Of a DNA stretch of 64,000 bases, positions 33,360 to 39,522 are shown piece by piece (position 1 is the stretch's first letter; every line of letters starts with the position of its first letter). The stretch is taken from NCBI GenBank assembly GCA_043228905.1, contig JBHGNT010000013.1, positions 11,284,001 through 11,348,000 on the forward strand, written 5' to 3'. The DNA is from Azolla caroliniana. Taxonomy: Eukaryota > Plantae > Polypodiophyta. The notes beneath the pieces were generated by a model. It ran no database searches. It was not told the origin of the DNA and worked only from the letters and a program-made list of their open reading frames with translations. The position numbers were made by a program, and so were the translations under genes.

Positions 33360-36300
33360 ATGGGGACCCACATGAATTCTGGACACCACAGTGCTAGTGC
33401 CATCTCTGTCTCGGCTCGATCATCCATCGACATCAATCCTGCCCATGAATCCTGCACAGACGGCACTACCCTGACGACCCAAAAATTTATACGAGCCTCC
33501 ATCTGTCTCAAACTCACTATATTCGTGGGATTGTTGGTAAAAATGTGTTATTTAAGAAAGCATTTTCACGTGATTTTTTGCTTTGCTACCATTGAGTAAA
33601 TATATGATTTGATATTAACCAGTCAGGTGATTGCTTGCAGGTAGTGCTGGCCTCAGGTATCCCCGCATTAGTTCTGTGGTTGAAAACACATGAGCAACTT
33701 GTAAATGAAATCGAACGTCGGCTTCTCACAGTTTCTACTCTGAGGCAAGAACAGCTCAAAGACTACTTAGATAGTGAGAGCGACAAGGCAGGATTGATTG
33801 CAAGCCGAGTTTTGATCAATAACTTATTAAGTCACAAGCCAGGAGCAAACAATAAGAATTTGGCCGAGTATGATTTGAACCTAGCCATCTCAGTAATATC
33901 GGATTTTATGTATGCGTCCATTTACGATGCGTATGGGAACTTGATTCTGTCAACAGGGGAGTCATTGGGCCTGAATATAAGGGAAACTATGAATGTTAGC
34001 TCGTTGATTAAACAATCAGATCATTTGAGGGTTGGCCATCCTCTACTAACTTCCAAAGGATGGATGTATAACATGTCCCATCCAATCTATCAGGTAAGCA
34101 TGAATAGCGAGCTCTTCAAATATCAAAGTGCAAACCTAGATGCTAGGTTTAGGTAGATCATCCTTGTGTTAGCCAGGGTACTACATTGGGATGTTCAACC
34201 TCACCTGTAGAAGCTCTACAAAATGCTATGTTCTAACATGCAATATGGGGGAATCATAGCGAGACAGAGTTTGAGGGATAATGAAAACTTGAATTGGGAA
34301 TTAGATGGTCATGCATTGTTAAATTCAATCTTAATGTTGTCTGAATATTGTAGAATACAACACTTATTGGAGTGCTATTGACTTGGGTGAATGCATCGAA
34401 ATTGGGGGCATTAGTATATGACAGAACAGGGCTCCAGCAAACTGGTGAATTGCTAGTCGGCATCCCGCAAAACTCAAATATGGTCCATCTACTATTCCCT
34501 GCATTACAAAACATCAACGTTACTATGGTTAAACCTGATGGTGCAATGGCCCGAGCTATAGCTGGAGAATCAGGAGTATTGAGACAACGAGACTACAGTG
34601 GTGCAAGTACCATTGCTGCTTACACACCTGTCGAGTTCATGCACTGGGGTGTGTGAACTTGCTCTTTAGATTTCTTTTACTTCATTGTTTCATATAAGAT
34701 TGTAAGAAAGTATATTATATTTTAGTTCTTTCTTTCCAAACTTGTTTTACTGACTCTTGAGTATCATTTCCTCACTAGGGTTAGTGGCAAAGTTGGATGT
34801 TTACGAAGCATATGCACCAGTCCAAAGTGTTCGGATTGTCATCATTACGACAATAATTGTTCTCGTTGCCTTGGGGGTGATGGCATCATTAGTATTAGCA
34901 AAGGTGAGACCACATTGTTTTGCCCTCCCTGAAAACAGAAGTGCCATTATTGTTAGCCTTGTGTTTCATGTGGTTTTGGGCAAGTAGCAAGATATAGAAT
35001 AGAATCTAATATTATATATTGGGTGGCTTTACAGGTCTTCACTAATCCAATCATTGAGCTAGGAAGAGCAGCAGCATCACTTGGTGAAGGTCATATGAGG
35101 ACCCGGGCACGGAAAGGCACTTTCATCCTCCGTGATGAAATAGCTGACCTCATGGACACTTTCAATAGCATGGCCCATGAAATTGCAAGCAATCAAATCA
35201 TGTTGGAGCACAAGGTCAATCAATTAATATATTTGATACATCTTTTGTAATTATATTTTCTCAGATATCTAAGTAAAGTTAATTGAGAATTTTTATCGTG
35301 TTAATAAATATGTATATGTTGACATCCTTCTCTGAAGACCAGGTTGAAGAGAGAACATTGGACCTTGCCCGTGCTAACGATGGACTTGCGAAGGAAATTG
35401 AAGAGAGAAGGAGGATCGAAGCTGAGCTCCAGAAGGCCAAGGATACAGCCGATGATGCGAACCGATCGAAGTCGGAGTTCCTTGCAAATATGTCCCACGA
35501 GATTAGGACTCCCTTGAATGCCATAATTAACTTCACGGAGCTTTGCTTGGATACCCAGCTTACACCCGAGCAAAAGGAATACCTTGACTATGTAAAGTGT
35601 TGATCATGCATGGCCCTCAGTCTTCCAATTATTCTGTAGCAAATTAGTTTGACATTGTATATGTGTCTACATAATATGTATAAATTCGTAAATGTGTGGA
35701 TGTAGTTGTATTGTATGTGCATTTGCATACATGTATGTACACACGAACACACCCATATATATCATATGTATACATACACAGAAATATATACACATGCATG
35801 CAGATACATACGCATATATACACATGTATATTACTCGGGATTTGATGGTTGATGACAGGGACTTGAACTCCCTATTGATGGCAAAGGCAAAAGCTCTCTA
35901 ATTATGTATATGTGCTTGGTTCAGGTTTCCTTTGCATCACAACATTTGCTACGGCTCATTACAGACATCCTAGACTTTAGCAAGATTGAAGCTGGTAAAT
36001 TGCAGATGGAGGAGGTGCAGTTCTCATTGTATGATCAGCTGGAGCATGCTGTCTCAGTTCTTGCGGCACGTGCTTTACAAAGTGGCTTAGAACTATGTTG
36101 TTGCATTGCATCTGATGTTCCTGACCAGATAAAAGGGGATCCAGGAAGACTACTTCAAATATTTGTGAATTTGATTGGTAAGTTAACATTGACACTGCTT
36201 TATATATTTCTGGTATACATACATATAATTAATTACATATACAGTTTGCAGATGTCTGTGTGTGTAGAGATACATACGTACATACATATATACAAATATA

Positions 36301-39300
36301 GAACATAATTTTGTACCTACATACATGCATATATTTTTGCGAACATACATCCATACATGTTTATGTATGTGCATCAGAGGTGCATCAGAGGCTTCACCAT
36401 AAAAGTTGTTTATGAGCATACACATAGTCCTTCCATTCCAAGTATATATCTAGATCATAGCTATCCACATTGTGCCCAGCCATGTGGACATCCATTTACT
36501 GTTGGTTTACTCCAATATCAATTGATTCTGGGGGGGTGATGTATCCACATGACATAAGTTAAAAGATCAACACTTTGACAACAAATAGAACTTTGATTTT
36601 CAATTCTTCCCATCATGTGCATTTATTAATGTCTTTGCATACTTCTGTTATCATCCAAGGGAAATTAATTTCTTATTTATGTGGTAAGAGTAAGGCTTGT
36701 CAATATATCCTGCAGGTAATGCTATCAAGTTTACTGAGAAAGGTGAAGTGGTTGTATATGCATCTGTTGAAAACAGGAATGAGGATTCAGTTGAGCTGAA
36801 GTTTGGTGTCAAAGATACTGGTAACACTTCACTTGCATACCTTTATGAAAACAAGCATTGGTGTATTTTTCATCACCTCTTGCTATAGTGTTTTCCTACA
36901 CATCATTTTGTAGGCCTTGGTATCCCTCCTGAGAAACAATCATTGCTATTTAAAGCTTTCTCACAAGTAGACTCTTCTACACACAGGTTAGATACTCTGT
37001 TTTAAACAATCATTGTGATAAATTTCTCTGAAGTACATTCTTCGAGGCACAAGCTTTGAAAGTAATTTGCATTTTTTTTAAAAGTTTTCAGAAAAGCAAT
37101 ATCTCCGAAATTAGTATCCTTTTTTCCTTTACAACCGTCACATGATATTATTATCCGCTTGTATAGATTTATGCATTATTTCTTAATACGTTATATCTTA
37201 TAAAGTTCAATTGTCCCTGAAAATGTATTTGCGAAAAAGAGGCATTGCATCACATTTTCTGCTGCATAAAATGTTGTATTTTAATTAGTGTTCTTTGTCC
37301 ATTTGACATGCTATTCATAAAGAAATCCAACCTAAAAGGTTTACAACTTTCTGGAAAGATTATTATACTAAGGGAAATGAATCTGGTACAGACTTTATGG
37401 AGGAACAGGGTTAGGCTTAGTGATCTCGGCGAAACTTGCTTCAGCCATGAATGGAAGGATGTGGGTCGAAAGTGCTGGAATAAAAGGGCAAGGAAGCACT
37501 TTCTTGTTCAGAGCAAAATTTGGGACAGTAGAATCAAACCGCTGCCCACATGTTTATAGTTTCAAGGATGCAAAAGCACTTGTGGTGGATAACAGTGATA
37601 CGATTTGTCAAGTGCTAGTTGCGTTGCTTCAGGTTGTACTATCACTCCTTTTCTTTTTCTTATGGAAAATGACTTCTGTTTTCCTTTGTTCAGGATAGTG
37701 ACATCTTCTGTTGCTAGGTTTTAGACATTAATTCCCCACTTCCCTTATGTTTTCTTACAATCTGTAAACATATGAGGTTTGGCATAATAAGCCACCTATG
37801 TATCTACTGCCTCAGCCTGTTGAAATGCATGTCGTTAGGTCAACATACGCAATGCAGGCTCTTGAAATTGTTAAAACAGAAAAAGGTAGTCCTTCAAGGT
37901 AAATTTTTATCAATCTTTTGGTGCAGGGGTTCGAGATGATAGCAGACAGCGTGACAACTGTTGAAGCAGCACAAATCACTTTGACAGCGGCATCTCAATC
38001 AGGTGCAAAATACAACGTTGTGTTACTTGATATGCAGCTCGAAGGCACCCCTGCAGATGAGCTGGTTCATTTTCTTCGACAAGAGCCGCAATATGTTGTT
38101 CGATACACTTCATCTTCCGAAGCAGAGGTATCACAGTGATATAGTTAGATTGGTAATTAAGGCATAAATAGATGGGTACACTGTTTTGAGCCCATTTTTT
38201 CAGTAAAAAACTCAATGATTTTGTCAATATTCTATATTTAGTTTCTAGGCTTAGAAATATCAACTTACCGATATAAAATGGGATAGTTAACCACTTATTG
38301 GATGCTACTTTCTGACCAATCAAAACACTGTTATATATTTTGAGAGACAAACTATAATCAATTTGTTGAGCCCTCATTTAATGCAGAGGGAGGACGGAGA
38401 GAGTTCAACAAGTGCTCAATCATGTGGCATAGATTGTATCATAATGCTGACATCTGTCAATAACACCGATACAGCCAGGTGTCGTATATAACTTTATGAT
38501 CAAATTTTCATTTCCTTTTGGTGCCATATCAAGTTGTACTGTATACGCAGACATATATATTTAAATCTATTTTTCCTACTCTCTAATGTAAGGTGCAAGG
38601 AGCTTGGAATAGGTTGTCACATATCGAAGCCCATCAAGAGAGCCTTATTAGTGAGGTCTTTGCATGAAGTTCTAGGTATCAAAGACAAATATGATATGGA
38701 GGTATAATTATTCTCCTTGATTCAAGAATAATAAAACATTGCTCATGTGCTTTAAAGTTGCTCATGTGTAATAAATATTGTGATGCTCAATCTGTAGGGG
38801 AAAACGGTGAAAGCAGAAAATATCCCTAGTAAAAGCCTCTATATCTTAGTTGTTGAGGATAACCTTATAAATCAACGGGTAGCATCGATATTGTTGAGTA
38901 AGTGGGGGCATACATTTGTTATGGCCAAAGATGGAGAAGAAGCTGTTGAACAGTGGATGAAGGAAGATTTTGACATTGTTTTGATGGATGTAAGCGAGAC
39001 CATATTACTGAAATAACCCATTAAAGTTTTCAATTTGTTTTATTGTTGGTTCATTTGGTTTAACATTTTTCTACATTCTATAATCATGAGTTTCTCTAAA
39101 AGGACAACCGGATAAGCGTTGTAGGTTCTAATGCCAGTTTGTGATGGATTCCAAGCAACACAGAAGATTCGAGAGTTGGAGAAGAAATTGAATAGACCTA
39201 AGCACACTCCAATTGTTGCTATGACTGCTCATGCAATGTCCGGAGATGGAGATCGTTGTATTGCATCAGGCATGGATTTCTATATTAGCAAGCCTTTAAA

Positions 39301-39522
39301 TGCTAAGAAGCTCCAGGAATTGATCCAAGTAGTAGGAGCTCAGGGACAATACACTGAATCTTCAATCTGGTATGTTCTGAAATGTTGTCTTTATGTACAC
39401 ACACACATCTCTCTCTCTCTCTCTATACCCACATATATATCCTTCGTTCTGAGTATACATACACATAAGTATACACAAATAAGTGAATATGCCCTCTTCT
39501 TGGAATGTCCCCAATCTGAAGA
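33360..39522 (+). CDS. Membrane hybrid histidine kinase (~996 aa): TM, extracellular Cache-like domain, TM, HAMP, HisKA, HATPase, REC, REC
   Basis: GT-AG exons 33360-33536, 33641-34093, 34354-34648, 34779-34903, 35035-35214, 35343-35591, 35925-36177, 36716-36820, 36914-36986, 37392-37632, 37927-38127, 38387-38478, 38593-38701, 38798-38989, 39125-39369 join in frame, with stop TG|A completed by the next exon. H-box [15 protein letters not shown]-box [15 protein letters not shown]1 VKDTGLGI; F-box [10 protein letters not shown]2 YGGTGLGL; two receiver domains. Confidence 0.93.

What the first reader, a model, noticed from the sequence alone, without database searches (positions are those of the whole stretch)
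33360..39369. Intron-rich plant hybrid histidine kinase with bacterial-type Cache-HAMP sensor architecture
Seen: two TM helices bracket a ~270-aa loop containing [14 protein letters not shown] and [29 protein letters not shown] clear HAMP follows (PIIEL...G...DEIADL..TFNSM), then [21 protein letters not shown]...[26 protein letters not shown]. Established: angiosperm HKs (CHASE receptors AHK2-4, ETR, AHK1, CKI1, AHK5) do not have this TM-Cache-TM-HAMP layout, which is typical of bacterial sensors and resembles fungal Sln1-type kinases. The gene is domesticated: at least 15 spliceosomal introns and five N-glycosylation sequons in the loop (NVS, NMS, NTT, NAS, NVT). Inference: an uncharacterised receptor for an unknown extracellular small molecule, possibly of horizontal origin and lost in seed plants.
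Basis: partly seen in the sequence, partly recalled or inferred. Interest (0 to 1): 0.75.

Follow-up and report, generated by a model that had tools for sequence, protein, structure and literature searches.

The report
Orphan bacterial-style receptor of seedless plants
This fern gene encodes an intact, spliced membrane sensor kinase of a family kept in algae, mosses, clubmosses and ferns and not found in seed plants; it was once labelled a nitrate-sensor look-alike, but its outer part is predicted to have a different, small-molecule-binding fold, so its signal is still to be found.

Summary
The window holds a 996-residue hybrid histidine kinase: TM-dCache-TM-HAMP-HisKA-HATPase-REC-REC, with 15 GT-AG introns (14 seen as joints in spliced contigs of relatives) and intact catalytic residues. 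Its closest relatives are fern proteins. The family is one clade (100/100) spanning Zygnematophyceae, mosses, Selaginella and ferns; a slime-mould sensor joins it; no seed-plant member appeared. It is not unreported: its Selaginella member is SmoelHK15 of the 'NarX-like nitrate/nitrite sensor' group listed by Kabbara et al. (PMC6324907), never tested as far as my searches show. That label fails here: likeness to E. coli NarX covers only TM2 and HAMP, and the 255-residue ectodomain is predicted (pLDDT 94) as a double Cache fold lacking the amino-acid motif. Nearest non-eukaryotic sensors are bacterial (the few named are Planctomycetota and Verrucomicrobiota), some with the same domain order plus Hpt. 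Horizontal origin is plausible, not shown: the eukaryotic clade lies beside, not inside, those bacteria, and AU tests do not reject kinship with other plant kinases. AHK1 also has a dCache domain; only HAMP sets this family apart. The scan's notes hold no earlier finding of it.

The parts
33360..33536 (+). Exon 1 (aa 1-59): cytoplasmic N-terminus and first half of TM1
   Evidence: gene model; joint in 2 of 4 runs
33641..34093 (+). Exon 2 (aa 60-210): rest of TM1, long dCache helix (conserved R86, R94, R115) and most of the membrane-distal module
34354..34648 (+). Exon 3 (aa 211-308): end of distal module, membrane-proximal module of the dCache domain
34779..34903 (+). Exon 4 (aa 309-350): last Cache strand and TM2
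35035..35214 (+). Exon 5 (aa 351-410): HAMP domain, with a connector 3 residues longer than in bacterial relatives
   Evidence: Pfam HAMP E 1.5e-6; connector 14 residues in 20 of 22 eukaryotic matches, 11 in 95 of 102 bacterial ones
35343..35591 (+). Exon 6 (aa 411-493): signalling coiled coil and HisKA with phospho-acceptor H462
35925..36177 (+). Exon 7 (aa 494-578): end of HisKA, start of HATPase
36716..36820 (+). Exon 8: N box (N579) to G1 box (D611)
36914..36986 (+). Exon 9: F box
37392..37632 (+). Exon 10: G2 box, end of HATPase, start of receiver 1
37927..38127 (+). Exon 11: receiver 1 with D752
38387..38478 (+). Exon 12: variable insert in receiver 1 and its Thr
38593..38701 (+). Exon 13: end of receiver 1 (K827)
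38798..38989 (+). Exon 14: receiver 2, acidic pocket E871-D872 and D915
39125..39369 (+). Exon 15: rest of receiver 2 (T949, K971), ends inside the stop codon
39370..39926 (+). Intron 15 (557 nt), splits the stop codon; exon 16 (3' UTR) starts at 39927
   Evidence: loose contig ends at 39369 in 4 of 4 runs

Best explanation
The gene encodes an intact, spliced hybrid histidine kinase of an ancient seedless-plant family, which likely works as a membrane receptor whose predicted double-Cache ectodomain senses a small solute other than an amino acid and likely passes the signal through TM2 and HAMP into a His-Asp phosphorelay. Shown: gene structure, splicing in relatives, domain order, catalytic residues, family membership and range. 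Predicted: dCache fold; glycosylated ectodomain facing the apoplast or ER lumen. Inferred from textbook two-component chemistry: a dimer in which binding shifts TM2, switches the HAMP bundle and the coiled coil, changes autophosphorylation of H462, and moves the phosphate to D915 (perhaps also D752), then to an HPt protein and response regulators. Inferred, weaker: the conserved sensing site is in the membrane-proximal module or at the long-helix interface rather than in the usual distal pocket; the receptor came from a bacterial dCache-HAMP-kinase-REC-REC-Hpt sensor before Zygnematophyceae and land plants split, lost its Hpt domain, and was lost in seed plants.
For: Open 996-aa frame; spliced contigs from 3 studies; 29 synonymous to 11 non-synonymous among the 40 listed of 167 differences to those contigs. 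H462, N579, D611, F and G2 boxes, D752/K827, D915/K971 present. Model of the 71%-identical fern relative P0004 (TM1 to HAMP; 82 sequences; pLDDT 94.4, pTM 0.81) matches dCache structures: Foldseek E 6e-15 to 2e-7 for all 36 rows listed; VIA Z 20.2, rmsd 2.9, 227 aligned with DvhD periplasmic domain, Z 16-18 with PctA, TlpC, TlpQ, DctB, all 8-17% identical. Amino-acid motif (PMC8915833, passages) found in none of the aligned sensors. Conservation in 14 streptophyte sensors: long helix 0.65, proximal module 0.60, distal module 0.47. Kinase tree: 16 family rows one clade 100/100, order algae-(moss, lycophyte)-ferns; sensor trees 95/83 and 95/89. Kinase core 52-65% identical to the 34 bacterial rows, 42-52% to 8 other plant kinases of this genome. 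Bacterial P0068, P0075, P0080 have dCache-HAMP-HisKA-HATPase-2 REC-Hpt.
Against: No ligand, localisation or activity was tested. The conserved proximal positions are mostly Gly, Pro, Trp and Ala shared with bacteria, so they may be structural; the weakly conserved distal pocket fits a receptor without a fixed ligand just as well. Pfam dCache_1 scores are mostly under the cut-off. The model is of a relative, not of the window protein. The eukaryotic sensors are not nested among bacteria and the root rests on two long branches; the kinase link to bacteria is weak (81/89) and AU tests do not reject a common plant origin. Receiver 1 has D-N in place of the D-D pocket of fern, moss and lycophyte relatives. 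Absence from seed plants rests on ranked, cut-off hit lists.
Confidence: 0.6

Rival explanations
1. It is an osmotic, turgor or cell-wall stress sensor that works like AHK1 or Sln1, without a diffusible ligand.
For: AHK1, poplar HK1 and Sln1 carry a dCache_1 ectodomain and act in osmosensing assays (PMC10093795, passages; PMC6944256, passages). The distal pocket is the least conserved part (0.47). Heavy glycosylation.
Against: The sensor profile does not recognise the frames of the 14 other kinase loci of this genome, two AHK1/CKI1-like ones included (best E 0.06). The bacterial relatives attach the same sensor to kinases, phosphatases and other outputs, as ligand sensors do.
Confidence: 0.22
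2. It is a nitrate/nitrite receptor, as Kabbara et al. proposed from likeness to NarX.
For: Published proposal (PMC6324907, sections on Archaeplastida and Amoebozoa, Fig. S3 legend). Three arginines of the long helix (R86, R94, R115) are kept from bacteria to ferns and could bind an anion at a dimer interface (inference).
Against: Profile and pairwise comparisons with E. coli NarX align only TM2-HAMP (NarX 152-258). NarX has a PilJ sensor of about 110 residues and a HisKA_3 kinase; this family has dCache_1 of about 255 residues and HisKA. The alignment picture in Fig. S3 could not be seen.
Confidence: 0.1
3. It is a vertically inherited sister or ancestor of the AHK1/CKI1 (or all plant) hybrid kinases that kept an ancestral HAMP domain, not a separate acquisition.
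For: Both have TM-dCache-TM. AU p 0.305 for family plus AHK1/CKI1-like, 0.139 for family plus all 8 other plant kinases. A slime-mould sensor joins the clade (98/96, 100/100), which allows an old eukaryotic origin.
Against: In the free tree the family joins none of them. TM2-to-His distance is 113 residues here and 39 in the two AHK1/CKI1-like genes, leaving no room for HAMP. 137 of the 150 best sensor hits are bacteria-like and none is named as AHK1 or CKI1; none of the 120 best kinase hits is a seed-plant protein.
Confidence: 0.15
4. It is bacterial contamination or a decaying gene.
For: Bacteria-like domain order and 50-65% kinase identity to bacteria.
Against: 15 spliceosomal introns, spliced contigs, a 21-Mb contig with plant genes and Copia remnants, a paralogue with matching exon borders 8.4 Mb away, orthologues in many plants.
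Confidence: 0.01

Closest known systems
'NarX-like' histidine kinases of Kabbara et al. 2019 (KniteHK29, KniteHK44, SmoelHK12, SmoelHK15, PpateHK38, PpolyHK39; PMC6324907)
   Same: SmoelHK15 is XP_002967448, which is P0059 here: 48% identical over the sensor, 73% over the kinase, same domain order with two receivers, same clade; the paper also has an amoebozoan member and none from Pinus, Amborella, Arabidopsis, rice or Marchantia in the group.
   Different: The paper has no fern or zygnematophyte member, does not name a Cache or HAMP domain for the group in its main text (0 uses of 'cache'), and reads it as a nitrate/nitrite sensor, which the sensor comparison here does not support.
E. coli NarX
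   Same: Two TM helices around an outer sensor, then HAMP and a coiled coil.
   Different: PilJ sensor of about 110 aa and HisKA_3 kinase without receivers, against dCache_1 of about 255 aa, HisKA and two receivers; only TM2-HAMP aligns.
Plant AHK1 / poplar HK1 / CKI1
   Same: TM-dCache_1-TM hybrid kinase feeding a phosphorelay.
   Different: No HAMP (39 against 113 residues from TM2 to His in the candidates of this genome), no detectable sensor similarity, separate branch in the free tree; present in angiosperms.
Unnamed bacterial dCache_1-HAMP hybrid kinases (named examples: Pirellulales, Planctomycetales, Verrucomicrobiia)
   Same: About 30% identity along the whole TM1-dCache-TM2-HAMP region; some have the same order HisKA-HATPase-REC-REC; kinase up to 61% identical (P0068).
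   Different: They end in Hpt, lack sequons, have a 3-residue shorter HAMP connector, and form a sister group rather than the parent group in the trees; no ligand known from my searches.
dCache_1AA amino-acid sensors (PctA, Mlp24, CtaA)
   Same: Predicted fold, Z 16-18.
   Different: 13-18% identity; the Y-R-W-Y-D motif is absent.

Membership tests
'NarX-like' HK group of Kabbara et al. 2019 | Clusters with the named members | tested here: met
   Clade 100/100 with SmoelHK15 = XP_002967448; the Klebsormidium and Physarum members were not retrieved
'NarX-like' HK group of Kabbara et al. 2019 | TM-sensor-TM, HisKA, HATPase, two receivers | tested here: met
NarX/NarQ nitrate sensors | PilJ-type sensor of about 100-115 residues | tested here: not met
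   NarX scores PilJ at 35-130; family members score dCache_1 and not PilJ; model is a double Cache fold; no sensor alignment
NarX/NarQ nitrate sensors | HisKA_3 kinase without receiver | tested here: not met
   HisKA plus two receivers
NarX/NarQ nitrate sensors | Binds nitrate or nitrite | not testable with these tools
   needs a binding assay
dCache_1 sensor domains | Long N-terminal helix and two PAS-like modules between two TM helices | tested here: met
   secondary structure and fold matches of the P0004 model
dCache_1 sensor domains | Pfam PF02743 over its cut-off of 45 bits | tested here: inconclusive
   18 bits for one exon; 14-45 bits for full plant relatives, one at 45.2; 33-66 bits for four bacterial relatives
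dCache_1AA amino-acid sensors | Y-R-W-Y ... Y ... D motif in the distal module | tested here: not met
   0 matches in the aligned ectodomains; no R-x-W-Y in any eukaryotic row (motif from PMC8915833)
AHK1/CKI1 group | Nests in the AHK1/CKI1 clade | tested here: inconclusive
   separate in the free tree but union not rejected, p-AU 0.305; the two reference genes are labelled from a recalled H-box and a weak CKI1 receiver hit, E 0.043
AHK1/CKI1 group | Short TM2-to-His linker without HAMP | tested here: not met
   113 against 39 residues; HAMP over cut-off
CHASE cytokinin receptors | CHASE domain PF03924 | tested here: not met
   no CHASE hit in window exons or relatives, while two other loci of the genome score it
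Active hybrid histidine kinases | H, N, G1, F, G2 boxes and receiver D/T/K | tested here: met
Active hybrid histidine kinases | Autophosphorylation and transfer to HPt | not testable with these tools
   needs biochemistry

The most novel reading that the evidence does not exclude
Algae, mosses, lycophytes and ferns share a dedicated receptor, taken whole from a Planctomycetota-like bacterium and passed to or from slime moulds, for a small extracellular signal (a hormone of the free-living gametophyte, or a microbe-made compound) that seed plants stopped sensing; finding the ligand would add a new signalling molecule to plant biology.
Probability: 0.25. Interest if true: 0.85.

Novelty: new member of a known kind. 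Interest (0 to 1): 0.47.

Why it matters
Plant receptor kinases of this class (ethylene, cytokinin) each revealed a major signal. [quoted passage not shown] It has two genes in Physcomitrium by the hits seen, so knockouts and ectodomain ligand screens are directly feasible. The group itself was listed in 2018-19, so the gain is a re-annotation, a wider range and a lead on origin, not a new class.

Tried and rejected
Sequence searches of the PDB with a fragment and with the sensor profile gave only HAMP matches and weak dCache ones (E 0.015 and 0.074). The ESM Atlas gave bacterial Cache/HAMP clusters of several phyla, none plant, so it neither names a donor nor shows absence. No HPt match in the own genome (0 candidates): the search works exon by exon, so this is uninformative. 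No run is on record as RNA; the spliced joints, not the label, carry the evidence. The wide structural search did not run; only the second look at Foldseek's hits did. Sampling 201 genomes each of the phyla of two named hits found 17 and 5 genomes with E at most 1e-25, but only 2 and 1 with over 200 bits, seeds included; no other phylum was sampled, and the profile held one bacterial row, so 'PVC donor' is a lead only. Klebsormidium, Marchantia and hornwort members were not among the 150 and 120 rows listed; for Klebsormidium this conflicts with the paper's list and shows that these lists miss divergent members. Family plus Ceratiomyxa on the kinase core: neither recovered nor rejected (p-AU 0.463). 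Paper searches for a functional study found only PMC6324907 as bearing on the group; subscription papers (for example the moss two-component catalogue cited there, not seen) are outside the library. Figures of PMC6324907, including the tree and the Fig. S3 alignment, could not be seen. Earlier scan notes: two unrelated bacterial kinases by sequence, none by words.
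Full report
Gene. The window lies on a 21-Mb contig of a 523-Mb genome. Splice sites chosen by frame and GT-AG ends give 15 coding exons from 33360 to 39369 and a 996-aa frame without a stop (after trial models). Contigs of 4 public runs from 3 studies, of close relatives and guessed to be RNA, skip all 14 introns: 11 in 4 of 4 runs, one in 3 of 4, two in 2 of 4. 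Their loose ends at 39369 continue in an exon at 39927, so a 15th intron splits the stop codon. Of the 40 listed differences to these contigs (167 in all, the best supported shown), 29 are synonymous and 11 are not. A paralogue lies 8.4 Mb away with matching exon borders and 45-78% identity by exon.

Anatomy. TM1 (about 49-72), ectodomain (73-327), TM2 (328-349), HAMP (351-405), coiled coil, HisKA with H462, HATPase with N579, D611, F and G2 boxes, receiver 1 (D752, K827, split by a variable insert) and receiver 2 (E871, D872, D915, T949, K971). The TM1-HAMP region of the closest full-length relative (P0004, 71% identical there) was folded with 82 sequences: pLDDT 94.4, pTM 0.81, a long helix and two PAS-like modules, then two helices with a connector as in HAMP. 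All 36 Foldseek rows listed have E at most 2e-7 and are extracellular sensor domains or whole receptors, mostly named dCache ones; VIA-align gives Z 20.2 (rmsd 2.9, 227 aligned) for DvhD and Z 16-19 for the other 49 rows, 8-17% identical, so no ligand can be read from them. The amino-acid motif of PMC8915833 (passages read) is absent from every aligned ectodomain. Among 14 streptophyte sensors the commonest residue has mean frequency 0.65 in the long helix, 0.60 in the proximal module and 0.47 in the distal module; sequons average 5.0 in 15 eukaryotic and 0.55 in 139 bacterial ectodomains.

Range. The exon-2 search returned 14 proteins, those named all from Adiantum or Ceratopteris; Pteridium followed. 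So the window is most likely a fern (inference). A profile of six fern sensors and one bacterial sensor scored 46,408 representatives at E up to 0.001; of the best 150, 13 are closer to eukaryotic references and 137 to bacterial ones. Nine of the 13 carry names: ferns, Selaginella, Mesotaenium, Spirogloea and the slime mould Ceratiomyxa; the other four are nearest to fern or zygnematophyte rows. The kinase-core search (120 listed of 7,996) added a second Selaginella gene, Physcomitrium, Ceratodon, Sphagnum and Closterium with the same domains, then bacteria; no seed plant, liverwort, hornwort or Klebsormidium name is among them. Of 13 bacteria-like representatives looked up, 2 gave a taxon (Verrucomicrobiota, Pirellulales); the genome scan gave 3 loci, two Verrucomicrobiia and one Planctomycetales. 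Three bacterial proteins scanned have the same order of domains plus a final Hpt.

Trees. Kinase core (59 rows, 237 columns, LG+G4, bootstrap not fully settled; 26 of 56 sensor-bearing and 8 of 57 kinase-hit bacterial rows kept after removing near-duplicates; phytochrome-like and three redundant own loci left out): the 16 streptophyte rows form one clade (100/100) in roughly species order; it sits weakly (81/89) with five bacterial rows, one of them sensor-bearing P0068; ETR, MASE1, CHASE and AHK1/CKI1-like genes of the same genome lie elsewhere on long branches. AU tests do not reject family plus AHK1/CKI1-like (p 0.305), family plus all eight (p 0.139) or family plus Ceratiomyxa (p 0.463). 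Sensor region: streptophytes 95/83, with Ceratiomyxa 98/96, sister to 33 bacterial rows when rooted on two long distant rows; a mixture model on 29 rows without them gives 95/89 and 100/100. A longer HAMP connector marks the eukaryotic rows. Thus one old eukaryotic lineage with close bacterial kin is shown; a donor and a direction are not.

What is known. Kabbara et al. [quoted passage not shown] SmoelHK15 is XP_002967448, which is P0059 of this clade. The window gene is therefore a fern member of that group. Compared with E. coli NarX (fetched), the fern profile aligns only over HAMP (probability 51.5, 61 columns), SmoelHK15 only over TM2-HAMP-coil and a short ATPase piece, the broad sensor profile only over NarX 152-235; NarX has PilJ and HisKA_3 where the family has dCache_1 and HisKA. 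The nitrate label thus rests on shared HAMP topology. PMC13730384 and PMC11096116 (passages) discuss algal kinases without this group. Eight searches showed no functional study in the library held.

Mechanism. Most likely a dimeric, glycosylated membrane receptor: solute binding to the double Cache domain moves TM2, switches HAMP and the coiled coil, and sets H462 phosphorylation and transfer to D915 (perhaps D752), then HPt and response regulators. The first three clauses are inferred from the predicted fold and general two-component knowledge; the downstream partners were not shown (uninformative). Rivals are an AHK1-like physical-stress sensor and, less likely, an anion sensor using the conserved helix arginines.

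Verdict. Real and correctly described; a new fern member of a group listed once and not studied further as far as I could find; the useful additions are the dCache re-annotation, the wider range, the bacterial kin and the amoebozoan link. Interest 0.47.

Noticed in passing
G000:C13:19757000-19774000 (L003, L004), minus strand: Paralogue of the gene with matching exon borders, 45-78% identity by exon.
   Followed up: partly
L018-L031 (own genome): Other histidine kinase loci: three ethylene-receptor-like, three MASE1, four phytochrome-like, two AHK1/CKI1-like, two CHASE; a lower bound.
   Followed up: partly
window 33077-33176: A 100-base N gap 184 bases upstream of the start codon, so the promoter is not fully assembled; the stretch near 32800-32950 is a repeat hit by many unrelated contigs.
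   Followed up: no
window 39922-39927: Two of four runs join exon 15 to a site 5 bases earlier than the other two, which would read through the split stop codon and give a longer C-terminus.
   Followed up: no
window 600-17000 and 44800-46300: Broken Copia-type retrotransposon remnants (integrase, RVT_2).
   Followed up: no
window 48897-49520 (-): Exon of a BT1-family (folate/biopterin transporter-like) gene, E 1e-43.
   Followed up: no
window 59457-63587 (-): Large gene with a GYF domain and a 914-aa exon without Pfam match.
   Followed up: no
P0194 (Ceratiomyxa fruticulosa): A slime-mould kinase whose sensor joins the streptophyte clade strongly while its kinase core is unplaced; it has one receiver.
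   Followed up: partly
P0231, P0236, P0238, P0239, P0245 (mosses): Moss members diverge right after HAMP where all others keep the V-x-E-R-T coil start, suggesting a changed signalling helix.
   Followed up: no
P0014 and P0018 (Adiantum nelumboides): Neighbouring gene models hold the two halves of one family member, the first fused to retroelement domains: a split or disrupted copy.
   Followed up: no
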